DNA of 45,478 nucleotides, taken from IMG/VR virus record IMGVR_UViG_2541047780_000004, one strand, 5' to 3'. The translations under genes and the position numbers were made by a program. The notes beneath the pieces are model-generated. The model was not told where the DNA came from. It was given only the letters and a program-made list of their open reading frames with translations, and did not search any database. Shown here piece after piece: positions 1-32,907 of the stretch. Source of the DNA: a virus (lineage: Duplodnaviria; Heunggongvirae; Uroviricota; Caudoviricetes). Within the stretch, counting starts at the first letter, position 1, and each line of letters starts with the position of its first letter.

Positions 1-1143
1 CTATGCTGTTTTGATATCTACGATAATCCAGTCTTTACCACGATCATCATTGTATCGGTCGGTCATTTTTCTGGATTTATGACCTAACAACTTTTGCGTA
101 TCCAGACCCTGTTCCCGATATAACCGTTCTGACAGAGATCGCTGCTCATGAAATGTGGGCGCAGTTCCTGGCTCCCATTTTATGCCACATTTTTCCCTGG
201 CCTTTTTAAAAGCCGTTGTAAGAGTATTTGCAGACACCTGGTCTCCTCTGTTTGCTTGAGAGGTAGTGTGACGGTAATGGACCAGATATTTACTAACAAC
301 AGCATCCCTGCACTGAGATATAACTTCACGAAGGGTAATATTCAGAGCATCGCATTTCAGGTTAAGCGGAATAGCAAGTTTTGAACCGGTTTTTTCCTGA
401 GTAATGTGCAACATGTCGTCCCAGATATCAGAGAATTTCAAATTGCAGATATCGCCTAAACGTTGTCCAGTGACAAGAGCAAGTAGCATCCCGCATTTTA
501 AATAGGGCTGCCGTCTGCTTACGCTGTCAAATATTGCCTGCCATTCGGGCAGTGATAATCTTTGGCGGTTTACTCGATTTCGCGGTTGTTTTGTTGCCTG
601 CGCTGGGTTAAATCCTGGCGGAACATGTCCTGCGTGTTGTGCTTCTTTGAAGACGTCGATCAACACCATTCTCACGACTTGCGCCATCCTGTTATGACCT
701 TCAGCCTTTACAGCATCAATTATTTCGGCAATATCAAGTGCGGTAATATCCTTGAGGTGTTGCATTCCACAATGCTCACGGAAAAGACGAATGGGTTTGC
801 CTTTTTGCCGATAGGAGTTGGGTCTTAGTTCATTATGTTGCAGCCTGTCCTCCTGGATAGAAATATATTTATCAAGCCATTCTGTCACCGTAATGTCTGA
901 GCGCCTGCCTTTCATTCTTTCTAGACGCTCATTGACGCTTAATATTTGTCGGGTACGTTGTTCAGCAATAATGGTATTTGCTTCAGTAGCAACTTGTTTT
1001 GCTTCATTCTCATCAGTTCCTAAGCTATGAAAACGACCGGATAGTGGATGTTTGTATTGCCAATATACCTTTCCGGTTCGCTTATCTAATTTGCAATATA
1101 AATTGGGTATAGAGATTTTGTGAGATCGGGGTCTAGCAGCCAT
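1..1143 (-). CDS. int: Phage integrase, tyrosine recombinase (lambda-Int family)
   Basis: 380-aa ORF with ATG at 1141-1143 and stop at 1-3; C-terminal catalytic-domain-like sequence of tyrosine recombinases; overlaps the xis-like ORF by 11 nt as in lambda int-xis. Confidence 0.9.
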   Translation of the reverse strand: MAARPRSHKISIPNLYCKLDKRTGKVYWQYKHPLSGRFHSLGTDENEAKQVATEANTIIAEQRTRQILSVNERLERMKGRRSDITVTEWLDKYISIQEDRLQHNELRPNSYRQKGKPIRLFREHCGMQHLKDITALDIAEIIDAVKAEGHNRMAQVVRMVLIDVFKEAQHAGHVPPGFNPAQATKQPRNRVNRQRLSLPEWQAIFDSVSRRQPYLKCGMLLALVTGQRLGDICNLKFSDIWDDMLHITQEKTGSKLAIPLNLKCDALNITLREVISQCRDAVVSKYLVHYRHTTSQANRGDQVSANTLTTAFKKAREKCGIKWEPGTAPTFHEQRSLSERLYREQGLDTQKLLGHKSRKMTDRYNDDRGKDWIIVDIKTA

Positions 1144-1369
1144 CAGCGATTATCCGTTGGAGTTTTGGGTTTGCGTTTATTGGGAGTTGCGGTTCTGCAA
1201 GCGTTCCTACAAAACGGGAATTTCGGTCAATCATCCAGTAGCGACCAACTTTTATAGCGGGTGGGGCCATCATTTTCCCTTGCGCGTATTTTTTCAGAAC
1301 TCGCTCACTTGGTGCTAAGTCCCCAAATTCTTCTTTAGCCCAGTCCTGTAAAGTGATTAGTCGAGACAT
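1133..1369 (-). CDS. xis: Excisionase (Xis-like)
   Basis: 78-aa ORF immediately upstream of int and overlapping it; sequence pattern (ITLQDW... PPAIKVGRYW) resembles lambda Xis (LTLQEW... PPPVKDGREY) as recalled. Confidence 0.75.
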   Translation of the reverse strand: MSRLITLQDWAKEEFGDLAPSERVLKKYAQGKMMAPPAIKVGRYWMIDRNSRFVGTLAEPQLPINANPKLQRIIADGC

Positions 1370-1508
1370 TTGTCCTCCTCTTAGCTGCTGAGGGAGTTTG
1401 TGACCGATATATCTGACATGATATTAAGCTCATGGCAGGTACATCTCTTGACTGGTCATAGAGATAAATTTAATGCTGAGAAATGCAGTATTGAATTTAT
1501 CAATTTTT

Positions 1509-1748
1509 CTATTTCCTGCGTATGGCACGTAACTTCTTAATGTGTTCTGCTGTTTCGATCTCTTCAGCTATCCGATCTGCGTCAGCTTTATTCACAGGTT
1601 CAAAGTCATGATTAAAGCGGAACATGCTGGCGATACATGTTCTGCCTTTTCGGATGTAGTGAACTTTGTTGTGAGTGGAACGCAGGATTTTGCAGGGAGT
1701 GCCGTGGTGGTCGACGTACCAGGTGTTAGGGTAAATCACTCTGAACAT
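1509..1748 (-). CDS. Hypothetical small early protein
   Basis: 79-aa ORF with ATG start, co-oriented with the early-left operon; no family recognised. Confidence 0.5.
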   Translation of the reverse strand: MFRVIYPNTWYVDHHGTPCKILRSTHNKVHYIRKGRTCIASMFRFNHDFEPVNKADADRIAEEIETAEHIKKLRAIRRK

Positions 1749-1773
1749 TCTTGACCTTGTGTTGTGCGGATTG

Positions 1774-2058
1774 TTATTCAGTGCCGATATTTACCTTTAT
1801 CGCGTATACCTTTACCGGTTTATCACCGAAGTGCGGATGTGTGATTGTCTTCACTTCATATCCGTCATACGGAACATCAACTCTGCGGCTGGAATCGTCG
1901 CGCTTCGGATATCCCTTTGTGATAATCAGGCGGTCATGCTTACGGTTAACGAGGCGCTTTTTCCAGTAGTCATTACACAGGCGATACTCTTCCGTTTTCT
2001 CTCCGCGAATCATGGCATCGAAGTATTCACCTTTAACGGCAAGTTGCAGGTTAGCCAC
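1774..2058 (-). CDS. Hypothetical protein, possibly ASCH/PUA-like fold
   Basis: ORF track gives 1774..2142, but that start overlaps the upstream gene by 92 nt; a GTG at 2056-2058 is preceded by AAGGAG and overlaps the upstream stop by 8 nt, so I chose the GTG start. ASCH-like call rests on the GEYFDAMIRGEKTEEYR motif and is tentative. Confidence 0.45.
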   Translation of the reverse strand: MANLQLAVKGEYFDAMIRGEKTEEYRLCNDYWKKRLVNRKHDRLIITKGYPKRDDSSRRVDVPYDGYEVKTITHPHFGDKPVKVYAIKVNIGTE

Positions 2059-2791
2059 GGTTAACTCCTTGCTGTGTGGCGTCGAGTAATAAATCCCACA
2101 ACCGCTGAGAGCAATTTCCGCATGTACAGCGTTGACCCACAACGTTTATCGCGTTGCTGATTTCCGGCGTTACCTGTTTAGGAACCATAACCCAACCATC
2201 CGGAGTTACCGGAAGCGAGAACGGCAGCACATCTCTGTGAACAAGTTTTTGCTGTGACAGGTTATCCAGAACTTTCTGTACTGCTGCATCACCGAATACA
2301 CCAAGCGCATCTGCCATAACTCCTACAACCTGATAAGCCTCAGCGCATACCGTGGATAAACCATCCGGAATTACCGGAGAGTTGCCGGGTTCTTTAATGT
2401 GCAAGCGAGGCTCACCATCTTTTGGCTCAGGCCACTGGCGCTCCATGTTGATCTTCAATTTATCTTCCATAGCAACGGTAATTTCAGCATCGCTGATGCC
2501 AGCACGGCGCTGTGCATCCCACAACAGAAACTGCATATCAGCCCACTCGCTAAGATCGTCTGGTTCGGCTGCGGCTTCCAGTGCCTCTTTTGAGAGGTGT
2601 TTCAGTGGACCAATGGGGCCAACGCAGCCAAATGTGGAGTCAGACCATTTGGCATGCTCGTGGCGAATCTGTTCGCGTTCCAGTGATGCCAGTGCAATTC
2701 GTGCTAGTTCCATTTGTTCGCCACGAGTAAGCCCGTTTTCAAGCGGATTTTTAATGAACAATTCAATACGTTCTTTGGTAATAGTGGTCAT
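2051..2791 (-). CDS. Hypothetical protein with DUF550-like (dATP/dGTP pyrophosphohydrolase-like) central region
   Basis: 246-aa ORF, ATG at 2789-2791; central segment (WSDSTFG...KHLSKEALE...EWADMQFLLWDAQRRAG) matches my recollection of the DUF550 family; not verified by search. Confidence 0.5.
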   Translation of the reverse strand: MTTITKERIELFIKNPLENGLTRGEQMELARIALASLEREQIRHEHAKWSDSTFGCVGPIGPLKHLSKEALEAAAEPDDLSEWADMQFLLWDAQRRAGISDAEITVAMEDKLKINMERQWPEPKDGEPRLHIKEPGNSPVIPDGLSTVCAEAYQVVGVMADALGVFGDAAVQKVLDNLSQQKLVHRDVLPFSLPVTPDGWVMVPKQVTPEISNAINVVGQRCTCGNCSQRLWDLLLDATQQGVNRG

Positions 2792-2997
2792 GTGTTAATC
2801 CTCAAAACTTTATGCCCGGGCGCAAAAGTACGTGTTTTGTCTTTGCTTATTCGCCACCCGTCTTTACGGGCCTCTTTTGCACAACCAGACCATGACGTAC
2901 CGATATACTCACCGAAGTCTGGCACTGGATATACACCTTCCGTACACTGGCGACAATCACAATAGAGATGCATGGTGTAACTTGCGGCAATAGCCAT
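2788..2997 (-). CDS. Hypothetical Cys-rich small protein
   Basis: ORF track start at 3039 overlaps the upstream gene; an internal ATG at 2995-2997 sits 1 nt after the upstream TGA with a GAGAG RBS-like sequence; contains a CDCRQC motif. Confidence 0.4.
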   Translation of the reverse strand: MAIAASYTMHLYCDCRQCTEGVYPVPDFGEYIGTSWSGCAKEARKDGWRISKDKTRTFAPGHKVLRINT

Positions 2998-2998
2998 A

Positions 2999-3532
2999 TC
3001 ACTCTCTTTTTCCCTGAAGCATGGCAGCGTGGCAGGCATCCTCTACGCCCTTAACTGCATCTGCGCAGTAGTTATAGCGATTGCATTCCACTAACTTCTG
3101 CCTGAGATTTTCAATTGCTTGCGCGACATCAGCCTGTATTACAGGAACTGGCGGAACGGCTGTCTGCTGCTCTCGAACGTCATTAGTCGCTATCGGTTCT
3201 GCTGCCAACTGACTGGCATATTTGTTAATGGTAACGATAAGCTCTTGCTCAGCCTCATCCAGACAATCACCGATACCTCGCCTGTCGCCGTCAAAATCAT
3301 CGAAATCAGCACGAACTCTGGCAAATTTCAGGATTGCGGACAACACCTCACCAGGAATTACCGGAGAGTTGGTTGACGTTTCCGAAATTTCCCGAAAATT
3401 ATTGGTTGACGAATTCGCGTTTTCCCGAAAGTTTCCGGCATGAAGCATAGCCGCGCGGCAGGCGTTCCAGCCTCTCACCTCTGCAATAGCGGCAACAGCA
3501 TCGACCGCGTACATGCTAAGAGGGTTAGGCAT
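2999..3532 (-). CDS. Hypothetical protein with internal tandem repeat (NFRE...NFRE)
   Basis: ORF track 2999..3607 starts on TTG and overlaps the upstream gene; first in-frame ATG downstream of the upstream stop is at 3530-3532. Start is uncertain. Confidence 0.4.
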   Translation of the reverse strand: MPNPLSMYAVDAVAAIAEVRGWNACRAAMLHAGNFRENANSSTNNFREISETSTNSPVIPGEVLSAILKFARVRADFDDFDGDRRGIGDCLDEAEQELIVTINKYASQLAAEPIATNDVREQQTAVPPVPVIQADVAQAIENLRQKLVECNRYNYCADAVKGVEDACHAAMLQGKRE

Positions 3533-3549
3533 TGGTTTTTCTTCAGGTA

Positions 3550-3804
3550 CTACTGGCACTGGCTTGGCATATATAGCGGCTGAACATACCAACCCTTTGA
3601 TAACCAACTGTCAGCAATGTTTTTACTCCTCGTTATTGCCGGAATACCTAAGCCATTGTCTGAATGCAGCCATGCCACCGGATTCTCTTCCAGCGATGCC
3701 AGAGCAATTTCATAAGCCCGGCGCTCAACATTGTCTCGCACATCCAAACTGCTGATACGCTCTTTGATTTCTTTAATCAGTTCTTTGTCGGTAAAAGTGC
3801 TCAT
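3550..3804 (-). CDS. Hypothetical protein
   Basis: ORF track 3550..3825 begins with TTG; ATG at 3802-3804 lies 1 nt after the upstream TGA (TGAtATG) with GGAG 6 nt upstream. Confidence 0.5.
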   Translation of the reverse strand: MSTFTDKELIKEIKERISSLDVRDNVERRAYEIALASLEENPVAWLHSDNGLGIPAITRSKNIADSWLSKGWYVQPLYMPSQCQ

Positions 3805-3805
3805 A

Positions 3806-4570
3806 TCAATCTCCATTGGTATCAATGTTTACAGCCTGACAAGACTCTTTGAGCACCCAGTCAATAGCGTCTTTCCATGCCTCTGTTTCGACTGGTGGAT
3901 TTTCACGCTTAACCTGTTCATAGAAGCGCACTGCTTTAACCAGTCCTTCCGGTACTACTGGTGATGGCTGTTTAGCTTCTAAATCAGCAATTCTGTCAAC
4001 CACGGCATCGACAGCATCTGAAAAGCCGAACCAGTTGCTCCACTCCGGCTCATCCCCGGTTGCTGCAAAGTACATATCTGCTAAAGCAGATTCAGCATGG
4101 TCACGCTCGTTAATGAGTTGCTCTTCGCTTTTCTCCAGTTCAGCAATACGCTTACCCCCATCCGAGATAACACCTTCGTAATACTCACGCTGCTCGTTGA
4201 GTTTTGATTTTGTCTCCTCAAGCTCAACTCTCAGCTTCCCAACAGTAAGAGCAATATCCTCGTTCTCCTGGTCGCGGCGTTTTATGTATTGCTGGTTTCT
4301 TTCCCGTTCATCCAGCAGTGCCAGCACAGTAGCCGGATTGGCTGCGGCGATGAATTCAGCATTGGCCTGCTGTTCCATTTGGAAATCTTCATCGAAACCG
4401 CTTTCTGGATGCGCTCCTTCAATTCTGCAAATGGGAATATATCCAGCAACTTCACGATGAATTAGCGCATAATCACCATCAAATCGGCTCTCTCCATATT
4501 CGAGCGACCACTCACCACACGTTGCTTTTTCTGCCGCTTCACGCAGTGCCTGATAGTTAATTTCGCTCAC
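3806..4570 (-). CDS. Ea22-like early protein
   Basis: 254-aa ORF with GTG start overlapping the upstream TGA (GTGA) and a GAGAGG RBS; coiled-coil-rich sequence resembling lambdoid Ea22-family proteins as recalled. Confidence 0.65.
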   Translation of the reverse strand: MSEINYQALREAAEKATCGEWSLEYGESRFDGDYALIHREVAGYIPICRIEGAHPESGFDEDFQMEQQANAEFIAAANPATVLALLDERERNQQYIKRRDQENEDIALTVGKLRVELEETKSKLNEQREYYEGVISDGGKRIAELEKSEEQLINERDHAESALADMYFAATGDEPEWSNWFGFSDAVDAVVDRIADLEAKQPSPVVPEGLVKAVRFYEQVKRENPPVETEAWKDAIDWVLKESCQAVNIDTNGD

Positions 4571-4788
4571 TTCGAACCTCTCTGTTTACTGATAAGCTCC
4601 AGATCCTCCTGGCAACTTGCACAAGTCCGACAACCCTGAACGACCAGGCGTCTTCGTTCATCTATGGGATCGCCACACTCACAACAATGAGTGGCGGATA
4701 TAGTCTGGTAGTTCAGACGACGCATTTTTATTGCTGTATTGCGCTGTAATTCTTCAATTTCTGATGCTGAATCAATGATGTCCGCCAT
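4567..4788 (-). CDS. TraR/DksA-family C4 zinc-finger protein
   Basis: 73-aa ORF with CxxC...CxxC spacing (CCECGDPIDERRR...CRTCASCQ) typical of phage TraR-like proteins. Confidence 0.75.
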   Translation of the reverse strand: MADIIDSASEIEELQRNTAIKMRRLNYQTISATHCCECGDPIDERRRLVVQGCRTCASCQEDLELISKQRGSK

Positions 4789-4840
4789 CTTTCATTAATC
4801 CCTGAATTGTTGGTTAATACGCTTGAGGGTGAATGCGAAT

Positions 4841-4866
4841 AATAAAAAAGGAGCCTGTAGCTCCCT
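4841..4866 (-). terminator. Rho-independent terminator-like hairpin in the leftward operon
   Basis: Stem GGAGC / GCTCC with loop CTGTA at 4850-4864; on the minus strand it is followed by a T-tract (plus-strand AATAAAAAA at 4841-4849); sits just downstream of the ORF ending at 4887. Confidence 0.5.
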
Positions 4867-4886
4867 GATGATTTTGCTTTTCATGT

Positions 4887-5168
4887 TCACCGTTCCTTAA
4901 AGACGCCGTTTAACATGCCGATCGCCAGGCTTAAATGAGTCGGTGTGAATCCCATCAGCGTTACCGTTTCGCGGTGCTTCTTTAGTACGCTACGGCAAAT
5001 GTCATCGACGTTTTTATCCGGAAACTGCTGTCTGGCTTTTTTGATTTCAGAATTAGCCTGACGGGCAATGCTGCGAAGGGCGTTTTCTTGCTGAGGTGTC
5101 ACTGAACAAGCCCCATGTCGGCAAGCATAAGCACACAGAATATGAAGCCCGCTGCCAGAAAAATGCAT
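4887..5168 (-). CDS. Hypothetical protein (alternative GTG start at 5102 gives 71 aa)
   Basis: 93-aa ORF from ATG 5166-5168 without a clear RBS; an in-frame GTG at 5100-5102 overlaps the stop of a 27-codon ORF in another frame (GTGA), giving an alternative coupled arrangement. Confidence 0.45.
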   Translation of the reverse strand: MHFSGSGLHILCAYACRHGACSVTPQQENALRSIARQANSEIKKARQQFPDKNVDDICRSVLKKHRETVTLMGFTPTHLSLAIGMLNGVFKER

Positions 5169-5182
5169 TCAGTGGTTGTCAT
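5099..5182 (-). CDS. Candidate 27-aa hydrophobic peptide (MTTTECIFLAAGFIFCVLMLADMGLVQ)
   Basis: ATG at 5180-5182 overlaps the upstream stop (ATGA); TGA at 5099-5101 overlaps the next GTG (GTGA); sequence is strongly hydrophobic. Below the 60-aa ORF-track cut-off, so absent from the track. Confidence 0.3.
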   Translation of the reverse strand: MTTTECIFLAAGFIFCVLMLADMGLVQ

Positions 5183-5370
5183 ACCTGGTCTCTCTCATCT
5201 GCTTCTGCTTTCGCCACCATCATTTCCAGCTTTTGTGAAAGGGATGTGGCTAACGTATGAAATTCTTCGTCTGTTTCTACTGGTATTGGCACAAACCTGA
5301 CTCCAATTTGAGCAAGGCTATGTGCCATCTCAATACTCGTTCTTAACTCAACAGGAGATGCTTTGTGCAT
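5179..5370 (-). CDS. Small early protein (resembles Qin-prophage YdfA-type proteins from memory)
   Basis: 63-aa ORF, ATG at 5368-5370 with GGGAGG RBS; family name is unverified recollection. Confidence 0.5.
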   Translation of the reverse strand: MHKASPVELRTSIEMAHSLAQIGVRFVPIPVETDEEFHTLATSLSQKLEMMVAKAEADERDQV

Positions 5371-5531
5371 ACCGCCTCCCGTTTATTATTTATCTTCTCA
5401 GCCAGCCGCTGTGCTTTCAGTGGATTTCTGATAACAGAAAGGCCGGGAAATACCCAGCCTCGCTTTGTAACGGAGTAGACGAAAGTGATCGCGCCTACCC
5501 GGATATTATCGTGAGGATGCGTCATCGCCAT
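5343..5531 (-). CDS. Small early protein (hypothetical)
   Basis: 62-aa ORF, ATG at 5529-5531, overlaps the downstream gene by 28 nt. Confidence 0.45.
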
Positions 5532-5661
5532 TGCTCCCCAAATACAAAACTAATTTCAGCCAGTGCCTCGTCCATTTTTTCGATGAACTCCGGCACCATC
5601 TCGTCAAAACTCGCCATGTACTTTTCATCCCGCTCAACCACGACATAATGCAGTCCTTCAC
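5522..5661 (-). pseudogene. 5'-truncated early-gene remnant abutting the IS911 left end
   Basis: The ORF track's 5522..5710 reading frame runs into the IS911 terminus at 5662, so its first 16 codons are IS-encoded; only the C-terminal 46 codons are phage-derived. Confidence 0.35.
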
Positions 5662-5733
5662 TGAAGTGGTTTACTGAATTTGGCCACCTGAACAGAGGTG
5701 ATATGCTCACCTCAGAACAACACAGGTGCCATA

Positions 5734-6881
<1,148 letters not shown>

Positions 6882-6911
6882 CTCGGTGGCCAGTTTTTGT
6901 TGACCACTTCA

Positions 6912-10529: not shown

Positions 10530-10970
10530 ATGAAAAAACTAACCTTTGAAATTCGATCTCCGGCACATCAGCAAAACGCTATTCACGCAGTACAGCAAAT
10601 CCTTCCAGACCCAACCAAACCAATCGTAGTAACCATTCAGGAACGCAACCGCAGCTTAGACCAAAACAGGAAGCTATGGGCCTGCTTAGGTGACGTCTCT
10701 CGTCAGGTTGAATGGCATGGTCGCTGGCTGGATGCAGAAAGCTGGAAGTGTGTGTTTACCGCAGCATTAAAGCAGCAGGATGTTGTTCCTAACCTTGCCG
10801 GGAATGGCTTTGTGGTAATAGGCCAGTCAACCAGCAGGATGCGTGTAAGCGAATTTGCGGAGCTATTAGAGCTTATACAGGCATTCGGTACAGAGCGTGG
10901 CGTTAAGTGGTCAGACGAAGCGCGACTGGCTCTCGAATGGAAAGCGCGATGGGGAGATCGGGCTGCATGA
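10530..10970 (+). CDS. ninB: NinB recombination protein
   Basis: ATG at 10530 with G-rich RBS (ORF track's 10512 start is TTG); matches lambda NinB as recalled. Confidence 0.85.
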   Translation: MKKLTFEIRSPAHQQNAIHAVQQILPDPTKPIVVTIQERNRSLDQNRKLWACLGDVSRQVEWHGRWLDAESWKCVFTAALKQQDVVPNLAGNGFVVIGQSTSRMRVSEFAELLELIQAFGTERGVKWSDEARLALEWKARWGDRAA

Positions 10971-11494
10971 CTATCAAATCAAATACGCCAGCACACGACA
11001 AGGACTGCTGGCAAACGCCGCTTTGGCTTTTTGATGCACTGGATATTGAGTTTGGATTCTGGCTGGATTCGGCAGCGAGCGACAAAAATGCTCTGTGCGC
11101 TCACTGGCTAACTGAGGACGACGACGCGCTCAATTCTGAGTGGGTAAGCCACGGTGCAATCTGGAATAACCCACCGTACAGCAATATCAGGCCGTGGGTG
11201 GAAAAAGCCGCTGAGCAGTGTATACAACAGCGACAGACGGTAGTGATGCTTGTGCCAGAGGATATGTCTGTCGGATGGTTCAGCAAGGCTCTGGAGAGTG
11301 TTGACGAAGTTCGTATTATCACTGATGGACGGATTAATTTTATCGAACCATCGACAGGGCTGGAGAAGAAGGGAAACAGCAAAGGCTCCATGCTGCTGAT
11401 TTGGCGACCGTTCATCAGTCCTCGACGGATGTTTACTACCGTATCCAAAGCGGCATTGATGGCGATCGGGCAGGGCGTCAGGAGGGCTGCATGA
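10967..11494 (+). CDS. Phage DNA N6-adenine methyltransferase (Dam-like)
   Basis: ATG at 10967 overlapping the ninB stop (ATGA); contains the NPPY-type motif (WNNPPYSN) of adenine methyltransferases. Confidence 0.8.
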
Positions 11495-11667
11495 GACGAC
11501 AGCGACGAAGCATCACCGACATAATCTGCGAAAACTGCAAATACCTTCCAACGAAACGCTCCAGAAATAAACGCAAGCTAATCCCAAAAGAATCTGACGT
11601 AAAAACCTTCAATTACACAGCCCACCTGTGGGATATCCGGTGGCTAAGATATCGTGCGAGGAAATGA
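11491..11667 (+). CDS. ninE: NinE
   Basis: 58-aa product ([20 protein letters not shown]...) matching lambda NinE as recalled; ATG overlaps the upstream stop. Confidence 0.85.
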
Positions 11668-11669
11668 CA

Positions 11670-12011
11670 ATGGATTATTCACAGTTAAGTGATTTTGAAA
11701 TTAACAGAATGGTAGGAGACATAATTTTTAAAGGCCTTTGGGCAAGTAAACCGGAAACATCAGGGAATAACACCAACAAATGGTATTACGGAAATGCTGA
11801 TACAACTTTTGAGCCATTAAATCATTTGCCTGACTACTGCAATGATCCGAGCGCTTCATGGCCGATTATTGAGAAATACAGGATTTCTATCTTAGACCAG
11901 TTAACTGAATGGTGTGTGGATGCAAAAGGCGTAAGCCCAATATTTGATACCAGACCTCTCCGCGCCGCCATGATTGTCTTTCTCCTGATGCAGGAGGCCA
12001 ATAATGCTTAG
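11670..12011 (+). CDS. Hypothetical nin-region protein
   Basis: 113-aa ORF from ATG 11670, 3 nt after the ninE stop; family not recognised. Confidence 0.55.
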
Positions 12012-12198
12012 CCCATCTCAATCCCTTCAATACCTGAAAGAAAGCATAGAGCGGGCTTCAATGTGCACAGAGTGGATTCTATCTAGGTTTAGCGCATACA
12101 GAAGATTGCCGGTAAAGGGCATGCCAAGCAAGTCGATGCTGCATATGCAAAAGAATGCGCGCTGGAAGGTATGGCGAGAACACAGGTTATGTGGCTGA
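12004..12198 (+). CDS. ninF: NinF-like protein
   Basis: N-terminus [10 protein letters not shown] resembles lambda NinF; the remainder is divergent. Confidence 0.6.
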
Positions 12199-12217
12199 AA
12201 GAGGGGGTTATTAAGGC

Positions 12218-12580
12218 GTGAATACCTACAGCATCACATTACCCTGGCCTCCGAGCAATAATCGCTATTACCGCCATAATCGCGGGCGCACGCACGTCAG
12301 CGCAGAGGGGCAGGCATACCGCGATAACGTCGCCCGAATCATTAAAAACGCAATGCTGGATATCGGCCTGGCTATGCCTGTGAAAATCCGCATTGAGTGC
12401 CACATGCCGGATCGCCGTCGCCGTGACCTGGATAATCTGCAAAAAGCCGCTTTTGACGCACTCACTAAAGCAGGTTTCTGGCTGGATGATGCTCAGGTCG
12501 TTGATTACCGCGTTGTGAAGATGCCTGTTACCAAAGGTGGGAGGCTGGAACTGACCATCACCGAAATGGGGAATGAATGA
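12218..12580 (+). CDS. rusA: RusA Holliday-junction resolvase
   Basis: 120-aa ORF with GTG start; RusA-family sequence with conserved acidic residues. Confidence 0.85.
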
Positions 12581-12717
12581 TGTTTGAGTTTAATATGGCA
12601 GAACTTCTTCGCCACCGCTGGGGGCGTCTGCGCTTATATCGTTTCCTCGGTTCTGTTTTGACCGATTACCGAATACTGAAGAATTACGCCAAAACCCTGA
12701 CAGGAACAGGAGTATGA
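12577..12717 (+). CDS. YlcG-like small protein (46 aa)
   Basis: ATG overlapping the rusA stop; 46 codons ([23 protein letters not shown]...); matches my recollection of DLP12 YlcG; below the ORF-track cut-off. Confidence 0.55.
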
Positions 12718-12802
12718 AGTCAGAGATAACAATCAACTAATACTGTTTTGTTGATTTTTGCTTGTAATTGGCGTTCTGGTCTGATTTTTGTGGAGTAAGT
12801 TG

Positions 12803-13186
12803 ATGCGTGATATTCAGATGGTTCTTGAGCGTTGGGGTGCGTGGGCGGCTAATAATCATGAAGATGTGACCTGGTCGTCCATTGCCGCCGGTTTTAAGGG
12901 ATTAATTCCTTCAAAAGTAAAATCTCGCCCGCAATGTTGTGACGATGACGCGATGATCATTTGCGGGTGCATGGCCCGTCTGAAAAAGAACAACAGCGAT
13001 TTACACGATTTATTAGTAGATTATTATGTATGTGGTATGACATTCATGTCACTGGCAAGTAAGCATTGCTGCTCGGATGGTTATATCGGGAAAAGGTTAC
13101 AGAAGGCTGAGGGCATAATTGAAGGGATGTTAATGGCATTAGATATCCGGTTAGATATGGATATCGTTGCTAATAATTCTAATTGA
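12803..13186 (+). CDS. Late-gene antiterminator Q (DLP12 quuD-like)
   Basis: 127-aa product from ATG 12803 with GGAG RBS; position downstream of rusA/ylcG and upstream of the lysis module; Cys-rich zinc-binding-like region. Confidence 0.75.
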
Positions 13187-13210
13187 TATGCAATTGTTTA
13201 CTAAAAGTTA

Positions 13211-13236
13211 TTAAAAATGGGGCGTGGAAACGCCCC
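13211..13236 (-). terminator. Hairpin plus T-tract on the minus strand, candidate nmpC terminator
   Basis: GGGGCG-TGGAAA-CGCCCC at 13219-13236 preceded on the plus strand by TTAAAAAT (a T-tract when read on the minus strand). Confidence 0.4.
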
Positions 13237-13323
13237 CAAAATAAAGGGTAATATATAACAGAAGGTTTATATAGTAAGAAGCAAGGTAGTGCTTCTAAAG
13301 GAAGTGGCTTGAGGGCTCCACTT

Positions 13324-13365
13324 ATATGTTGCGGAGGCAAAGCCTCCCGCAACATATCTTTTTCG
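13324..13365 (+). terminator. Rho-independent terminator (plus strand) between Q and nmpC
   Basis: 15-bp stem ATATGTTGCGGAGGC / GCCTCCCGCAACATAT with loop AAAG, followed by CTTTTT. Confidence 0.5.
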
Positions 13366-13374
13366 TAAGTCAGA

Positions 13375-28848: not shown

Positions 28849-29869
28849 ACCGGTAGGCGATCTGGTCGTTGATTTAAGTCTGGATGCGGCCAGATTTGAC
28901 GAGCAGATGGCCAGAGTCAGGCGTCATTTTTCCGGTACGGAAAGTGATGCGAAAAAAACAGCGGCAGTCGTTGAACAGTCGCTGAGCCGACAGGCGCTGG
29001 CTGCACAGAAAGCGGGGATTTCCGTCGGGCAGTATAAAGCCGCCATGCGTATGCTGCCTGCACAGTTCACCGACGTGGCCACGCAGCTTGCAGGCGGGCA
29101 AAGCCCGTGGCTGATCCTGCTGCAACAGGGTGGTCAGGTTAAGGACTCCTTCGGCGGGATGATCCCCATGTTCCGGGGGCTTGCCGGTGCGATCACCCTG
29201 CCGATGGTCGGGGCCACCTCGCTGGCGGTGGCGACCGGTGCGCTGGCGTATGCCTGGTATCAGGGTAACTCAACCCTGTCCGATTTCAACAAAACGCTGG
29301 TCCTTTCCGGCAATCAGTCGGGTCTGACGGCAGATCGTATGCTGGTCCTGTCCAGAGCCGGGCAGGCGGCAGGGCTGACGTTTAACCAGACCAGCGAGTC
29401 ACTCAGCGCACTGGTTAAGGCGGGAGTAAGCGGTGAGGCTCAGATTGCATCCATCAGCCAGAGTGTGGCGCGTTTCTCCTCTGCATCCGGCGTGGAGGTG
29501 GACAAGGTCGCTGAAGCCTTCGGGAAGCTGACCACTGACCCGACGTCGGGGCTGACGGCGATGGCGCGCCAGTTCCATAACGTAACGGCGGAGCAGATTG
29601 CGTATGTTGCTCAGTTGCAGCGTTCCGGCGATGAATCCGGGGCATTGCAGGCGGCGAACGAGGCCGCAACGAAAGGGTTTGATGACCAGACCCGACGCCT
29701 GAAAGAGAACATGGGCACGCTGGAAACCTGGGCAGACAGGACAGCACGGGCATTCAAATCCATGTGGGATGCGGTGCTGGATATTGGTCGTCCTGATACC
29801 GCTCAGGAGATGCTGATTAAGGCAGAGGCTGCGTTTAAGAAAGGTAAGCTTCCGGGGAACTCATATTGA
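28841..29869 (+). pseudogene. H: Tape measure protein H, N-terminal fragment interrupted by an IS66-family insertion
   Basis: Product matches the lambda H N-terminus up to ...AEAAFKK (about 29843); the frame then runs into IS sequence and stops at 29869. Confidence 0.85.
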
Positions 29870-29934
29870 CGCGTTTTTCAGGCGCGCGTCATCGGCGGCG
29901 CATAGTAAGCGACTCGTCAGAACCGTATTGATAT

Positions 29935-31501
29935 TTACTGAGAGCTCAGATCAACTTTCCAGGGCAACAGATCGCGTACCCGGTTTGCCGGCCAGTCCTG
30001 GATATGTTCAATGACGTAACGCAGCCACTTTTCTGGCTCCACATTGTTCAGACGGCATGTGCCGATCAGCGAGTACAACACCGCCGCATGTTCACCACCG
30101 CTGTCGGAACCCGCGAACATCCAGTTTTTCCGGCCTACGGCCACTCCCCGTAAGGCGTTCTCTGCGATGTTGTTGTCGATTTCCACCCAGCCATTACTGC
30201 AGTACACGTTCAGTGCATCCCACTGTTTCAGCAGGTATGCGAACGCTTTTGCCGTATCTGAGTGACGCGACAGTGTTTTCATCTGTTGCTGTATCCAGTC
30301 ATACAGTGACTGCATCAGTGGCGCGGCTCTGGCTTTTCTTGCCGCCAGACGCTGTTCTGCTGAACAGCCCCGGACCTCTGCCTCGATGGCATACAGTTCA
30401 CCGATACGCTGCAGGGCTTCCGTGGTGATGTAGGTGGGCGCTCTTGCATGCACATCGTGGATTTTTCTCCGGGCATGAGCCATACACGCGGCTTCCGTTA
30501 TTCTGCCGGATTCGTATAAGGTAACCACCGTAAGCATCGGCCTGAAGCACACCGCTGTAACCGGCCAGGTGATTTTGTGGATGGATACCTTTCCGGTCCG
30601 GACTGTACGCGAACCAGACCGCCGGGGGCATCTGTGAACCGGCGTTACGGTCATCACGGACGTAGACCCACAGCCGGGCTGTCCGGGTTTTACCGCTGCC
30701 CGGCTCCTGGACCGGGACGGGGATATCATCAGCATGGACTTTACCGGGCATCAGCACATACTGGCGCAGGACGTCATACAGCGGCTCCAGCAGTTCAGCA
30801 ACAGCACCTGTCCAGCGCCCCAGTGTGGCACGGCTCAGCTCCACTCCCTGACGACGGTATATTTCTGACTGGCGGTATAACGGCAGATGGTCTGCATATT
30901 TCCCGGTGACAACATGGGCCAGAAGCCCCGCTCCGGCATAACTGCGTGCAATGGGTTTTGAAGGTACTGGTGCCTGCACGATATGGTCGCACCGGCAACA
31001 GGCCTGTTTCGGACGTTGTGTTTCGATAACCTTAAAGGCGCTGCTGATAAGCTCCAGTTGCTCTGACACATCACATCCCAGAGAACTGAGTTCACCACCA
31101 CAGGCAGGACAGCATTCCTCTTCCGGCCGGATAACCCGGGTTTCACGGGGAAGTGAGGCCGGTAACGGTTTACGGGCTGAAGACTGGCGCAGGGCGGATG
31201 GCAGTACCGGGTCATATTGCTCACCCAGCGTTTCCGCCATTTCTTCCTGAAGTGCGCTGATTCGCTCCTGTGCTTCCTGTATCTGCCGTTCGGTTTTTGC
31301 ACGAAGTTTTTCTGAGCTTTTACCGAACTGCATACGTTGCAGTTTCGCAACCAGCGCCTTCAGCCGGTTGATTTCGGAAGCATAAGCCGCCACCCGCTGT
31401 GAGAGCAGGCGGTTGTATTCAGCCATCTGGCGGATGGTGTCCTGTTGCGTCTGCAACAGTGCCCGCAGGCGGGCGTTCTCATGAGCAAGTGAGGTGTCCA
31501 T
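29935..31501 (-). pseudogene. IS66-family transposase (ISEc8-like), split into two overlapping frames by a frameshift
   Basis: N-terminal ORF 30398..31501 and C-terminal ORF 29935..30735 are consecutive parts of one transposase; the frame switch is near 30510-30530 (after ...ADAYGGY). Confidence 0.7.
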
Positions 31502-31520
31502 ATCCTCACTTTACAACGGG

Positions 31521-31868
31521 TTATATGCGGATTCCAGCGCGTTCCGTTCGTTTCGGGTGCTTCCAGTTGATACCTTCAAGAAGCATGGATAACTGAGCCG
31601 GAGTAAGGTGCACCTTGCCGTCACGGGTGACTGGCCAGACGAAGCGGCCCCGCTCCAGGCGTTTGGTGAAGAGGCACAGTCCGTCACTGTCAGCCCACAA
31701 CACTTTTATCTGGTCACCCCGGCGTCCGCGGAAGATGAACAGGTGTCCGGAGAACGGGTCATCCTTCAGGACGTTCTGAACTTTTGATGCCAGGCCGTTA
31801 AAGCCATTTCGCATATCGGTGATACCTGCAACCAGCCAGATACGCGAACCTGCAGGGAGAGATATCAT
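31521..31868 (-). CDS. IS66-family accessory protein TnpB (orf2)
   Basis: 115-aa product with the conserved IS66 Orf2 sequence; ATG overlaps the orf1 stop (ATGA). Confidence 0.8.
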   Translation of the reverse strand: MISLPAGSRIWLVAGITDMRNGFNGLASKVQNVLKDDPFSGHLFIFRGRRGDQIKVLWADSDGLCLFTKRLERGRFVWPVTRDGKVHLTPAQLSMLLEGINWKHPKRTERAGIRI

Positions 31869-32545
31869 CAGTGGCTGCTCCCTTTTATTTCGCGGATAAG
31901 TGTCTGTAATAACGCCGGCGTCAGTTTACCTTTAAGCCTGAGAGTTCCGGCCGGCAGAACCAGCTCACAACACAGACTGTCGGACGGTGTATTTATCTGC
32001 TCTGGTTCCTGTGCGGGGGCCGGGATTTTATTATCCGGCTCCGGCGTTAACGTCACGGGAAGCAGTGCCGGCATATTTTTTCCGGAAGGCAGCAGGCCAC
32101 CTTTCCGGTATTGATGGCGCCAGTTGAAGAGCAGGTTATCGTTGATTCCGTTTTCCCGGGCGATCTGCGCCACACAGGCTCCGGGCTGCAGTGACTGCTC
32201 CACTAAGGCGATTTTAAACTCATAAGGGAAGTTGGGCCGCCGGGGACGTTTTTTTACCACGGGGGCTTCGGATATAACGGTGCTTTCAGGACGTACGACT
32301 GGTACCGTGGAAAATTGTCCGTAAAGGCAGGCATCAAGTTCCTGCTCCGACATGCCTGCGGGCAAAGGCCACGAAAGGCCAGCTCTCCGAAAGCGCACGA
32401 ACATACTACAAACTGTTGATTTTGGTACACCCAGGCGACGCCCGGCCACAACCCGGGGTAAATGTTCTTCAAAGTGAAGACGTAAAGCTTCAGTGATCCA
32501 GGTCCGGTGTTTCATACGATAGTGTCCATTAAAAATGATGGACAT
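31868..32545 (-). CDS. IS66-family orf1 (TnpA-like HTH protein), unusually long
   Basis: 225-aa ORF; C-terminal half has the IS66 Orf1-like HTH region; the N-terminal about 100 aa is an extension and the real start may be internal. Confidence 0.65.
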   Translation of the reverse strand: MSIIFNGHYRMKHRTWITEALRLHFEEHLPRVVAGRRLGVPKSTVCSMFVRFRRAGLSWPLPAGMSEQELDACLYGQFSTVPVVRPESTVISEAPVVKKRPRRPNFPYEFKIALVEQSLQPGACVAQIARENGINDNLLFNWRHQYRKGGLLPSGKNMPALLPVTLTPEPDNKIPAPAQEPEQINTPSDSLCCELVLPAGTLRLKGKLTPALLQTLIREIKGSSH

Positions 32546-32686
32546 TATTTTTGTAGAGCCGGAGGAAACAGACCAGACGGTCTAAATGAGCCGGTTACGG
32601 CGCATACGAACGATCGTGGTTTGATAACGGTTGATTTATTTTGTTGCACAGGGGCGATCGCCAGGCAGGTACCGGAGGCGGGCTCT

Positions 32687-32785: not shown

Positions 32786-32907
32786 TCAGGTTCTTATTCG
32801 CTGTCAGCCCGCGTGGTTGCTGGTCTGGCTCATTTCCTGCCGTCAGGAGTTCAACTCCCGACTGCAGGTTATGGCCCGGTGCACGAACACCTGACGGCAG
32901 GTATCAC

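What the first reader, a model, noticed from the sequence alone, without database searches (positions are those of the whole stretch)
2198..3951. Recurring near-palindromic nucleotide motif encoding a PV(I/V/T)P peptide in three adjacent early-left genes
An identical 18-nt string GGAATTACCGGAGAGTTG occurs at 2367-2384 and 3354-3371. A close variant (CCATCCGGAGTTACCGGAAG) is at about 2196-2215, and a related GGTACTACTGG is at 3546-3556 and 3941-3951. The core TCCGGAATTACCGGA is an inverted repeat. On the coding strand these give NSPVIPDG, PVTPDGW, NSPVIPGE, PVPVVPEE and SPVVPEGL in three different proteins (the 246-aa, the 177-aa and the Ea22-like). This could be a short recombination linker marking module boundaries, a shared protein motif, or a DNA-binding site embedded in coding sequence.
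Basis: seen in the sequence. Interest (0 to 1): 0.5.

Follow-up and report, generated by a model that had tools for sequence, protein, structure and literature searches.

The report
In-frame recombination joints between phage protein modules
The recurring motif is a ~30-base sequence, conserved down to its silent codon positions, that encodes a proline-rich linker (G-N-S-P-V-I-P-D-G-W) and marks the exact point where unrelated protein domains of lambdoid-phage early genes have repeatedly been swapped in frame.

Summary
The 18-mer occurs twice, against 0.03 expected. The three variants exist, although one coordinate is off by 10.

On the minus (coding) strand, all five sites are proline-rich linkers inside three early-left genes of a lambdoid prophage that is identical to phage ev017 over this region.

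- **Shared joint.** The 18-mer is the core of a ~28-30 nt joint, GGC AAC TCT CCG GTR ATT CCG GAT GGT TGG. About half of complete E. coli genomes carry it, as do 459 phage records and other Enterobacterales.
- **Reassorted flanks.** Across 179 distinct contexts it joins 66 upstream families to 72 downstream families in 142 combinations.
- **Breakpoints.** Similarity between part-related genes is lost at the joint's two edges, about 30 nt apart.
- **Silent sites.** Synonymous positions are nearly fixed: CCG 58/59, GGT 56/59, TCT 50/51.
- **Domain edges.** The joints lie just beyond the Pfam domain edges.
- **Second class.** The PVVPE sites belong to another joint, Q-P-A-P-V-V-P-D/E.
- **Third class.** I-A-L-A-S-L-E-A-E-P-V lies further upstream, and the three classes always occur in the same order.

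Best reading: in-frame microhomology joints for homologous recombination that shuffles domains. The palindrome is only two CCGG tetramers, and nothing supports a DNA-binding site. I rate it a new variant of the "conserved boundary sequence" idea.

The parts
2360..2386 (-). Joint J3, copy 1. GGC AAC TCT CCG GTA ATT CCG GAT GGT encodes G-N-S-P-V-I-P-D-G, aa 136-144 of the 246-aa protein. It lies between the dATP/dGTP pyrophosphohydrolase domain and the 'LSTVCAEAYQVVG' module.
   Evidence: Exact 18-mer. The Pfam domain ends at aa 137. The same left module is joined elsewhere to DUF551, VMVPKELTPEM and VMVPKRLTAENGAK modules, and the same right module to another left module in L119. HSP ends fall at 2359-2392.
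3353..3371 (-). Joint J3, copy 2. (ACC) AAC TCT CCG GTA ATT CCT encodes (T)-N-S-P-V-I-P in the 2999-3607 ORF. It is followed by GE rather than DGW.
   Evidence: Exact 18-mer. The left module (...NFREISETST) is joined elsewhere to DGYALVPVEPT (L067) and to DUF551 (L124). The right module (GEVLSAI...) is joined to another left module in L048 and L074. HSP ends fall at 3354-3371.
2192..2215 (-). Joint J3, diverged copy. CTT CCG GTA ACT CCG GAT GGT TGG encodes L-P-V-T-P-D-G-W, aa 193-200 of the 246-aa protein, in front of its C-terminal module.
   Evidence: Homologues are 98-99% identical through W200 and then diverge into many DUF551 variants or VMVPK modules. Pfam DUF551 starts at G199 in those homologues. 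One relative (L105) has canonical NSPVIPDGW at this position.
3539..3565 (-). Joint J2 copy. AAG CCA GTG CCA GTA GTA CCT GAA GAA encodes K-P-V-P-V-V-P-E-E inside the frameshift-split gene.
   Evidence: It belongs to the class Q-P-A-P-V-V-P-D/E. Left-module homologues (L069, L096) continue into a different right module. Right-module homologues (L028, L083, L086, L097, L110) have different left modules, and their HSPs start at the joint.
3944..3970 (-). Joint J2 copy. CAG CCA TCA CCA GTA GTA CCG GAA GGA encodes Q-P-S-P-V-V-P-E-G, aa 201-209 of the Ea22-like protein, in front of its C-terminal module.
   Evidence: The same left flank (...IADLEAKQPS) is followed in L069 by a different module, PVVPDNASGSLAYAYKELTPE. 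HSP ends fall at 3948-3971. Ead_Ea22 covers aa 2-146.
2678..2701 (-). Joint J1 copy, R-I-A-L-A-S-L-E, aa 31-38 of the 246-aa protein. It lies between the N-terminal leader and the pyrophosphohydrolase domain, which starts at aa 42.
   Evidence: 81 distinct contexts of (R/K)I-ALASLE-AEPV with unrelated flanks were found in the held loci. P0002 has a different leader joined at this point. HSP ends cluster at 2670-2699.
3688..3708 (-). Joint J1 copy, I-A-L-A-S-L-E, in the 3550-3825 ORF, which is the N-terminal part of the split gene.
   Evidence: About 21 of 23 nt match the copy at 2678-2701 by eye (sequences printed). Contexts are listed.
2051..2791 (-). The 246-aa modular protein, built as leader, J1, dATP/dGTP pyrophosphohydrolase (DUF550), J3, module, J3', module.
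2999..3825 (-). One modular gene, built as leader, J1, module, J2, module, 33-nt duplication, J3, module. A 1-nt deletion in TATATA(-)GCC near 3569-3575 splits it into ORFs 3550-3825 and 2999-3607.
   Evidence: Alignment with L069 and L096. Intact fused relatives are P0006 and an L028 ORF.
3806..4570 (-). The Ea22-like protein, built as Ead_Ea22 N-terminal and coiled-coil part, J2, C-terminal module.

Best explanation
The motif is the core of an in-frame 'joint'. This is a ~28-30 nt DNA sequence, (GGC) AAC TCT CCG GTR ATT CCG GAT GGT TGG, that encodes the proline-rich interdomain linker G-N-S-P-V-I-P-D-G-W.

**What is shown**
- Many otherwise unrelated early-left ('ea') genes of lambdoid and P22-like phages of Enterobacterales carry it.
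- It is always read in the same frame and lies just beyond the Pfam domain edges.
- Its flanks are reassorted combinatorially.
- Homology breakpoints fall at its two edges.
- Its synonymous sites are conserved.
- The window's PVVPE sites belong to a second joint class, Q-P-A-P-V-V-P-D/E (J2).
- A third class, I-A-L-A-S-L-E-A-E-P-V (J1), lies further upstream in the same genes. The order J1, J2, J3 was invariant in the sample.

**What is inferred**
- The joint acts as a patch of microhomology. Phage annealases (Red-beta, RecT, Erf or Sak type) or host RecA cross over within it during co-infection or phage-prophage encounters.
- Each crossover exchanges whole N- or C-terminal domains and never breaks the reading frame.
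- At the protein level, the peptide is a neutral flexible spacer that tolerates any neighbouring domain.
For: **Reassortment**
- The exact 18-mer is present in at least 120 IMG/VR contigs. It lies between dozens of unrelated upstream and downstream sequences.
- In 116 instances there are 42 left clusters, 42 right clusters and 77 combinations.
- In 179 contexts there are 66 left families, 72 right families and 142 combinations. Ten complete 2x2 'four-gamete' rectangles are present.
- 19 pairs have a 99% or more identical left flank and an unrelated right flank, and 17 pairs show the converse.

**Breakpoints**
- 107 pairs are at least 95% identical on the left and unrelated on the right. They lose similarity at +11 to +47 from the first Pro codon, 94 of them at +11 to +25, with the mode at +19.
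- In the 39 converse pairs, similarity is lost at -14 to -1 in 38 of them, with the mode at -10.
- Information content is high only from about -2 to +25.

**DNA-level conservation**
- A codon-degenerate scan gave 59 distinct contexts. Codon counts against the background for each amino acid are CCG 58/59 (39%), ATT 56/59 (49%), CCG 55/59 (39%), GAT 58/59 (60%), GGT 56/59 (30%), AAC 45/47 (45%) and TCT 50/51 (18%).
- 33 of 45 NSPVIPDG instances use one codon set, where the expectation is 1e-3 per instance.
- Third-position identity in the joint is 83% between pairs unrelated on both sides. It is 86-89% where homologous flanks show only 62-75%.

**Domain boundaries**
- The pyrophosphohydrolase domain ends at aa 137 and DUF551 starts at G199.
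- Upstream parts include dATP-dGTP_PPHyd, Lar, Metallophos and Ead_Ea22. Downstream parts match DUF551 in 74 of 150 cases and have no Pfam match in most of the rest.

**Window-specific**
- All five sites carry HSP ends: 23 of 140 distinct ends fall within 15 nt, against 8.9 expected, with 96 of 5000 random placements doing as well.
- Homologues are 98-99% identical to aa 200 and then diverge.

**Prevalence**
- The joint is in 2697 of 5426 complete E. coli genomes, at 5083 places and up to 9 per genome.
- It is in 459 phage records, including HK620 hkaE, P22-like EaA genes, Stx phages and Klebsiella and Erwinia phages.
- A search across one genome per species found it in 24 contigs of about 20 further species.

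**Length**
- The minimal efficient pairing segment is 23-27 bp for Red-beta and 31-34 bp for RecA (PMC3945230), or about 30 bp (PMC2327257).
- 31% of joint pairs with unrelated flanks share an exact run of at least 23 nt. 46% share at least 27 nt with one mismatch or none.

**Order**
- All 100 multi-joint ORFs keep the order J1, J2, J3.
Against: - No experiment shows crossing-over in the joint. Recombination is inferred from comparative patterns.
- The median exact identity between joints in unrelated contexts is only 18 nt. The window's own two copies also share 18 nt. That is below the published minimal pairing lengths, so many pairs would recombine poorly.
- Synonymous-site conservation could partly reflect recent spread rather than selection.
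- The loci were found by searching for the motif, so the sample is ascertained on it. The codon statistics are the exception, since they come from a codon-degenerate scan.
- The structure model was too poor (pLDDT 38.7) to confirm a disordered linker.
- The window prophage has itself lost exo, bet and gam to an IS-associated deletion.
Confidence: 0.75

Rival explanations
1. Protein-level motif only. G-N-S-P-V-I-P-D-G-W is kept because the peptide itself is needed, for example as a docking or processing site or as the structural start of the downstream domain. On this view the DNA identity is a by-product of recent common ancestry.
For: The peptide is strongly conserved. 'DGW' is already position 1-2 of the Pfam DUF551 model, and DUF551 follows the joint in 74 of 150 cases.
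Against: About half of the downstream modules are not DUF551, and they share nothing beyond PVIP(D/G). Synonymous sites are far more uniform than codon usage predicts, and more conserved than in homologous flanks. This reading does not explain why breakpoints fall at both edges.
Confidence: 0.1
2. Illegitimate (homology-independent) recombination followed by selection for functional in-frame fusions at domain boundaries. On this view the shared linker simply travels with one of the partners.
For: This is the prevailing view for most phage mosaic boundaries, because conserved boundary sequences are usually absent (PMC3029335).
Against: A conserved sequence is present at every junction here. Both its 5' and its 3' edges act as breakpoints, depending on which flank is shared. 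Ten complete 2x2 rectangles exist. Random joining would not recreate the same 28-30 nt at nucleotide identity.
Confidence: 0.07
3. A DNA- or RNA-level site. This would be a near-palindromic protein-binding site, a target of a dedicated site-specific recombinase or nuclease (shufflon-like), or a small hairpin with a regulatory role.
For: UCCGG-N5-CCGGA can form a 5-bp hairpin in two of the window copies. Nucleotide-level conservation is compatible with a site.
Against: The dyad is broken in copy 2 (CCAGG) and absent in the PVVP class. Fold z-scores are -0.6, -2.4, -0.8, -1.0 and +0.7, and the single low value comes from the flanking duplication. Rfam gives no match at E up to 1. All copies are direct repeats on one strand, so inversion is impossible. 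The site is intragenic, and no dedicated recombinase was identified.
Confidence: 0.06
4. A chance or compositional repeat.
For: None beyond its short length.
Against: 0 of 100 shuffles gave two copies. The sequence recurs in thousands of genomes.
Confidence: 0.01

Closest known systems
Short conserved 'boundary' or 'linker' sequences between lambdoid phage modules. Sources are Susskind & Botstein 1978 and Clark et al. 2001 (HK620, J Mol Biol 311:657). They are cited as such in PMC3029335. The Clark abstract is recalled from memory because the paper is not held.
   Same: Short sequences conserved among otherwise dissimilar phages. They sit at mosaic boundaries and are proposed as foci for homologous recombination that reassorts modules. 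They occur in the same phage group and the same early region, and HK620 itself carries the joint in hkaE.
   Different: As I recall them, the published boundary sequences roughly delimit multi-gene functional modules. Here the joints are inside genes, translated in a fixed frame as an interdomain linker, come in at least three ordered classes, and reassort protein domains. I could not check whether any of Clark's seven sequences coincides with this one.
Conserved motifs in T-even tail-fibre adhesins, that is the glycine-rich motifs of gp38 and the His boxes of gp37. Crossovers in these motifs swap specificity segments (Tetart et al. 1998, as cited in PMC3157838).
   Same: Small conserved coding motifs separate variable segments. 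Crossovers within them generate chimeras without extended homology.
   Different: Those motifs are structural core elements of a single protein family. Here the flanks are unrelated domain families in non-structural early genes, and the motif is a linker rather than part of a fold.
Mosaic Ea22 variants and the 'portable' DUF551 domain (PMC10834534; PMC7093339), together with general phage domain mosaicism (PMC10684548).
   Same: The same genes and the same observation: C-terminal domains differ between otherwise similar Ea22 or EaA proteins.
   Different: In the passages searched for the term 'linker', none of these papers mentions one (0 occurrences each). The peptide strings were absent from the 8-million-paper library.
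Shufflons and other invertible C-terminal-swapping systems, such as Rci/sfx and the Gin, Cin and Pin families (general knowledge).
   Same: Short repeats embedded in coding sequence allow alternative C-terminal segments to be joined in frame to a constant N-terminal part.
   Different: Shufflon repeats are inverted and are used by a dedicated site-specific recombinase within one locus. Here the repeats are direct, dispersed over many genes and genomes, and no dedicated recombinase is evident.
Exon shuffling with phase-compatible introns (general knowledge; a conceptual analogue).
   Same: Standardised junctions in a fixed frame let domains be recombined without frameshifts.
   Different: There are no introns. 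The junction is a translated microhomology.

Membership tests
Conserved boundary/linker sequences of lambdoid phages | A short sequence conserved between genomes whose flanks are otherwise unrelated | tested here: met
   Information content is high only from about -2 to +25. Joint identity is 91% where flank third positions are at 26%, which is the random level.
Conserved boundary/linker sequences of lambdoid phages | Coincides with homology breakpoints and reassorted flanks | tested here: met
   Breakpoints have modes at -10 and +19. There are 66 left families, 72 right families, 142 combinations and 10 complete 2x2 rectangles. All five window sites carry HSP ends.
Conserved boundary/linker sequences of lambdoid phages | Lies between functional modules, that is at or between gene clusters | tested here: not met
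   All copies are intragenic and translated in one frame, just beyond the Pfam domain edges.
Conserved boundary/linker sequences of lambdoid phages | Long enough for homologous pairing (23-27 bp for Red-beta, 31-34 bp for RecA) | tested here: inconclusive
   The conserved core is 28-30 nt. Exact runs between joints in unrelated contexts have a median of 18 nt, 31% reach 23 nt and 9% reach 30 nt. Thresholds are from PMC3945230.
Conserved boundary/linker sequences of lambdoid phages | Recombination at the sequence demonstrated | not testable with these tools
   This needs phage crosses or sequencing of lysates.
Shufflon / invertible-segment systems | Repeats in inverted orientation flanking the swapped segments | tested here: not met
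   All five copies are direct repeats on the minus strand.
Shufflon / invertible-segment systems | A dedicated site-specific recombinase encoded next to the repeats | not tested
   The only recombinase seen nearby is the prophage integrase at 1-1143. The related loci were not screened.
Proline-rich interdomain linker (protein level) | Lies between independently recognised domains | tested here: met
   The pyrophosphohydrolase domain covers aa 42-137, the joint aa 136-144, and DUF551 starts at aa 199 after the joint at aa 193-200.
Proline-rich interdomain linker (protein level) | Unstructured or flexible in the protein | tested here: inconclusive
   The AlphaFold2 model has pLDDT 38.7. Coil is predicted at aa 120-144 and 181-208, but the model is unreliable. 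No solved relative exists.
Proline-rich interdomain linker (protein level) | Sequence free to drift, as in ordinary linkers | tested here: not met
   The peptide and even its synonymous sites are nearly invariant.
Operator-like or palindromic DNA-binding site | Dyad symmetry conserved in all copies | tested here: not met
   Copy 2 reads CCAGG...CCGGA and the PVVP class has no dyad. The symmetry is two CCGG tetramers.
Structured RNA element | A match to a known family, or a fold more stable than shuffles | tested here: not met
   Rfam gives 0 matches at E up to 1. Fold z-scores are mostly between -1 and +0.7.
T-even adhesin conserved-motif recombination | Motifs belong to one homologous protein family and form its structural core | tested here: not met
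   The flanks belong to many unrelated families.

The most novel reading that the evidence does not exclude
The three ordered joints are J1 (I-A-L-A-S-L-E-A-E-P-V), J2 (Q-P-A-P-V-V-P-D/E) and J3 (G-N-S-P-V-I-P-D-G-W). Together they may form a selected 'assembly standard' rather than passive scars. On this reading, second-order selection maintains their nucleotide sequences because phage annealases can use them to swap leader, core and C-terminal domains of early accessory proteins in frame. Those proteins may act in host takeover or anti-defence. The swapping would occur at measurable frequency whenever phages meet resident prophages. This would be a natural combinatorial system for protein diversification, distinct from diversity-generating retroelements and shufflons.
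Probability: 0.25. Interest if true: 0.8.

Novelty: new variant of a known kind. Interest (0 to 1): 0.62.

Why it matters
**An old question.** How phage mosaic boundaries arise has been debated since 1978. One view is homologous exchange at conserved linkers. The other is illegitimate recombination followed by selection. The second view has prevailed, because conserved boundary sequences are rarely found at mosaic boundaries (PMC3029335).

**What this case adds.** Here a conserved sequence is present at every junction:
- It is about 30 nt long and is read in a fixed frame.
- Its silent codon positions are conserved.
- It has been reused across at least 66 upstream and 72 downstream module families.
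- It occurs in half of all complete E. coli genomes.

**Why it is useful.**
- The linker hypothesis becomes directly testable by measuring crossing-over at a 30-nt joint.
- It explains why DUF551 and similar small domains look 'portable'.
- It gives annotators a way to split poorly understood 'ea' proteins into modules.
- It offers a natural, pre-validated junction for engineering domain swaps.

Tried and rejected
- **Structure.** AlphaFold2 on the 246-aa protein with a 13-row alignment gave a mean pLDDT of 38.7, so I drew no structural conclusion. No solved relative exists.
- **Clustering.** Single-linkage clustering of the complete left and right protein parts collapsed into about 10 families. 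Further shared modules and joints chain the proteins together. I used the 150-nt flanks next to the joint instead.
- **Megablast.** A search with the 30-mer GTG variant found only 45 E. coli genomes, because megablast needs a 28-nt exact word. The word-11 search gave the real prevalence.
- **RNA.** Folding of the five sites and an Rfam scan gave nothing.
- **Palindrome or DNA-binding reading.** Rejected, because the dyad is not conserved.
- **Literature.** No paper in the library contains PVIPDGW, NSPVIP (in a phage context), SPVIPDG or PVIPEGW. Clark et al. 2001 could not be read. The HK620 record has no feature annotated at the joint.
- **NCBIfam.** It added nothing for these proteins.
- **Stx-phage 'arrangement cde; region IV' repeat features.** These lie in the ea22/orf73 area of the Stx1 converting phage record AP005153.1 and are unrelated to the joints.
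Full report
**Setting.** The window is a lambdoid prophage. Positions 1-5661 are 100% identical to Escherichia phage ev017, and the 3.4-kb query (window 1400-4800) is 100% identical to PhiR57_1 from ECOR13. The finding lies in the early-left 'ea' genes downstream of int and xis, all on the minus strand:
- a 246-aa protein at 2051-2791, with a Pfam dATP/dGTP pyrophosphohydrolase (DUF550) domain at aa 42-137;
- an 83-aa ORF;
- the ORFs 2999-3607 and 3550-3825;
- an Ea22-like protein at 3806-4570, with Ead_Ea22 at aa 2-146.

**Observation.**
- The 18-mer GGAATTACCGGAGAGTTG is at 2367-2384 and 3354-3371. Expectation is 0.03, and no shuffle out of 100 gave two copies.
- The variant at 2196-2215 is present, as is GGTACTACTGG at 3546-3556. 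The second GGTACTACTGG copy is at 3951-3961, not 3941-3951.
- The repeat finder groups the sites independently into two families, D2 and D4.
- On the coding strand the sites read G-NSPVIP-DG, L-PVTP-DGW, T-NSPVIP-GE, KPV-PVVP-EE and QPS-PVVP-EG.
- The 'palindrome' is two CCGG tetramers, each a Pro codon CCG followed by G. It is broken in copy 2.

**What the 18-mer is.**
- In nearly every hit the 18-mer is read as NSPVIP inside an ORF. What precedes and what follows differ widely.
- Upstream sequences include ...HIKEPG, ...CRAAMLQAG, ...NFDVNG, ...RLQEALAG and ...ETST.
- Downstream sequences include DGWISCSERMPE (DUF551), DGWVMVPKEPTxEM, DGLSTVCAEAYQVVG, GEVLSAI, DCWCRTCRPV and DGLIAAVNRLL.
- Using the 150 nt next to the motif, 116 instances fall into 42 left clusters, 42 right clusters and 77 combinations.
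- With all held loci, 179 distinct contexts give 66 left families, 72 right families and 142 combinations.
- Ten complete 2x2 rectangles are present, meaning both left families occur with both right families.
- 19 pairs have a 99% or more identical left flank and an unrelated right flank, and 17 pairs show the converse.

**Extent of the conserved element and breakpoints.**
- Among 92 unique contexts, information content is near maximal from two bases upstream of the 18-mer to about eight bases downstream. It then falls to background sharply on the 5' side and more gradually on the 3' side.
- The consensus is GGC AAC TCT CCG GTR ATT CCG GAT GGT TGG, encoding G-N-S-P-V-I-P-D-G-W.
- In 107 pairs at least 95% identical over 160 nt on the left and unrelated on the right, similarity is lost at +11 to +47 from the first Pro codon. 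In 94 of them the loss is at +11 to +25, with the mode at +19.
- In the 39 converse pairs, similarity is lost at -14 to -1 in 38 of them, with the mode at -10.
- The exchanges therefore took place within an interval of about 30 nt, which is the joint itself.

**DNA-level conservation.**
- To avoid ascertainment on codons, I scanned IMG/VR with the codon-degenerate pattern CCNGTNRTNCCNGANGGNTGG.
- In 59 distinct enterobacterial-type contexts the codons are almost fixed. Counts against the background for each amino acid in the same ORFs are CCG 58/59 (39%), ATT 56/59 (49%), CCG 55/59 (39%), GAT 58/59 (60%), GGT 56/59 (30%), AAC 45/47 (45%) and TCT 50/51 (18%).
- Only the Val third position varies: GTG 39, GTA 15, GTT 5.
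- 33 of 45 NSPVIPDG instances use one codon set, whose expectation is 1e-3 per instance.
- Third-position identity within the joint is 83% between pairs unrelated on both sides, where flank third positions are at 26%. It is 86-89% in pairs whose homologous flanks show only 62-75%.
- Peptide constraint alone does not explain this.

**Domain boundaries.**
- The pyrophosphohydrolase model ends at aa 137 and the joint covers aa 136-144.
- In homologues the DUF551 model starts at G199, immediately after P-V-T-P-D.
- Among 150 upstream parts, Pfam finds dATP-dGTP_PPHyd in 25, Lar_restr_allev in 6, Metallophos in 2, DUF5490 in 2 and Ead_Ea22 in 1. Most have no match.
- Among 150 downstream parts, DUF551 is found in 74 and almost nothing else is recognised.
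- A protein search with the 246-aa protein returns many E. coli proteins that are 98-99% identical over exactly 82% of the query. In the alignment, columns are invariant from aa 42 to W200, and everything after W200 differs. The continuations are several DUF551 variants, VMVPKELTPEM, VMVPKKLTAENGAK and others.
- So the PVTPDGW site at 2192-2215 is a diverged copy of the same joint and a documented junction. One relative (L105) has canonical NSPVIPDGW there.

**The PVVPE sites.**
- These belong to a second joint class, with consensus CAG CCA GCG CCG GTA GTG CCG GA(T/G) GA, encoding Q-P-A-P-V-V-P-D/E-E/D.
- This class also lies between many unrelated modules.
- For the Ea22-like protein, the same left flank (...IADLEAKQPS) is followed in L069 by a different module.
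- For the 3539-3565 site, left-module homologues (L069, L096) continue differently. Right-module homologues (L028, L083, L086, L097, L110) have different left modules, and their HSPs begin at the joint.
- Hybrids such as ...KEQSA-PVIPDGW combine the 5' half of class 2 with the 3' half of class 1. This fits crossovers in the shared CCGGTA core.

**Window-wide check.**
- I ran BLAST of window 1144-4800 against all held loci. Of 140 distinct HSP end coordinates, 23 lie within 15 nt of the five sites. Random placement gives 8.9 +/- 5.6, and 96 of 5000 placements did as well. A further 38 ends lie at gene ends.
- Both sides of both canonical copies occur elsewhere with other partners, in L119, L048, L074, L067 and L124.

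**Distribution.**
- The 30-mer at about 90% identity or more is found in 2697 of 5426 complete E. coli genomes. It occurs at 5083 places, up to 9 per genome. The genes are annotated as DUF551, dATP/dGTP pyrophosphohydrolase or hypothetical.
- It is in 459 phage records, covering Escherichia, Salmonella P22-like EaA genes, Stx phages, Klebsiella, Enterobacter and Erwinia phages, and HK620 hkaE.
- A 23-mer is present in 24 contigs of about 20 further species. They include Enterobacter, Trabulsiella, Shimwellia, Brenneria, Erwinia, Hafnia and Scandinavium.

**Mechanism.**
- Shown: a conserved, fixed-frame 28-30 nt element at domain boundaries, combinatorially reassorted flanks, breakpoints at its edges, and silent-site conservation.
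- Inferred: homologous recombination within the joint, by phage single-strand annealing proteins or by RecA.
- Published minimal efficient pairing segments are 23-27 bp for Red-beta and 31-34 bp for RecA (PMC3945230), or about 30 bp (PMC2327257).
- Between joints in unrelated contexts, the exact run has a median of 18 nt. 31% of pairs reach 23 nt and 9% reach 30 nt. With one mismatch or none, the median is 26 nt and 46% reach 27 nt.
- So a substantial minority of pairs offers enough identity. The window's own two copies share 18 nt and would be poor partners.
- Because the frame is fixed, every such crossover yields an in-frame fusion.

**Alternatives.**
- A pure peptide motif does not explain the silent-site conservation or the two-sided breakpoints.
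- Illegitimate recombination would not recreate the same 30 nt at every junction.
- A DNA-binding or hairpin site is not supported. The dyad is not conserved, fold z-scores are not significant apart from one case caused by a neighbouring duplication, and Rfam gives no match.
- A shufflon-like system is excluded by the direct orientation of the repeats.
- A dedicated enzyme cannot be ruled out.

**Comparison with what is known.**
- The concept of short conserved boundary sequences as foci for recombination goes back to Susskind & Botstein 1978 and Clark et al. 2001 (cited in PMC3029335). It has been considered the exception.
- T-even adhesins provide an experimentally supported analogue, with crossovers in small conserved motifs (PMC3157838).
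- The mosaic nature of Ea22 and the portability of DUF551 are published (PMC10834534), as is general phage domain mosaicism (PMC10684548).
- No paper in the searchable library contains the peptide strings, and the passages I searched in those papers do not mention a linker.
- I could not read Clark et al. 2001, so prior description of this particular sequence cannot be excluded.
- I rate it a new variant of a known kind: intragenic, translated, fixed-frame, multi-class and ordered.

**Extension beyond the finding.**
- A third joint, (R/K)I-ALASLE-AEPV, has the consensus CGT ATC GCG CTG GCA TCG CTC GAA GCG GAG. It separates unrelated N-terminal leaders from unrelated following modules in 81 distinct contexts.
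- It is found in 1902 of 5426 E. coli genomes.
- The window has copies at 2678-2701 and 3688-3708.
- In all 100 ORFs that carry more than one joint, the order is J1, then J2, then J3.
- These 'ea' proteins therefore look like concatenations of small modules joined by a small, ordered set of standard junctions.

Noticed in passing
window 2678-2701 and 3688-3708 (minus strand); many held loci: A third conserved in-frame joint, (R/K)I-ALASLE-AEPV, with consensus CGT ATC GCG CTG GCA TCG CTC GAA GCG GAG. It lies between unrelated N-terminal leaders and unrelated following modules in 81 distinct contexts. It is found in 1902 of 5426 E. coli genomes.
   Followed up: partly
held loci L003-L245 and window: The joint classes occur in a fixed order within proteins. 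In all 100 multi-joint ORFs the order is ALASLE, then QPAPVVP(D/E), then NSPVIPDGW.
   Followed up: partly
window ~3569-3575 (ORFs 3550-3825 and 2999-3607): A 1-nt deletion in TATATA(-)GCC, relative to L069 and L096, splits one modular gene into two ORFs. Intact fused relatives exist, namely P0006 and an L028 ORF.
   Followed up: yes
window 3369-3400 and 3402-3433: A 33-nt tandem duplication encoding NFRENANSST and NFREISETST lies immediately upstream (coding sense) of joint copy 2. Similar low-complexity duplications (GNSEQL-NS, ESRCG...ESRCG-NS) precede the joint in other loci.
   Followed up: partly
window 2051-2075: The 3' end of the 246-aa gene (CAAGGAGTTAACCGTGGCTAA, ...QGVNRG*) contains a GGAG and the GTG start at 2058 of the downstream ASCH-domain gene. 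Related genes end in similar ...PQEVNRG, ...PPQEVK or ...KGE tails. The recurrent C-terminal peptides noted for Ea22 proteins (PMC7093339) may therefore be translational-coupling sequences.
   Followed up: no
window 5662-6910: An IS3-family-like element (HTH_Tnp_1 ORF at 5698-6036, rve ORF at 6063-6881) replaces 5.46 kb of phage ev017 (ev017 33354-38816). The replaced stretch runs from within exo through the RecT-like/bet gene, gam, kil, cIII, ral and N, and the exo remnant is left as ORF 5522-5710. This prophage has therefore lost its own recombination and antitermination genes.
   Followed up: partly
window 29844-35311: About 5.5 kb is absent from ev017. The flanks correspond to ev017 ~11806-11813, inside the tail tape-measure gene (10811-13372), so this may be an insertion in that gene.
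   Followed up: no
L223, L229, L230, L234 (Trabulsiella guamensis contigs): Four contigs of one draft genome carry the joint, three of them very short (419-3572 nt). These dispersed repeats may break short-read assemblies.
   Followed up: no
L227 (record titled Chryseobacterium sp. 18061): An exact 23-nt joint match sits in a contig attributed to a Bacteroidota species, far outside Enterobacterales. This could be contamination or mislabelling.
   Followed up: no
many right-hand modules in held loci: The small 'GW-VMVP-xEPTxEM...' modules end in a recurrent ...(M/I)LAAAPQ(E/P) sequence, and DUF551 modules end in ...HWMPLPEPPQE. These may be further conserved junction or terminal sequences.
   Followed up: no
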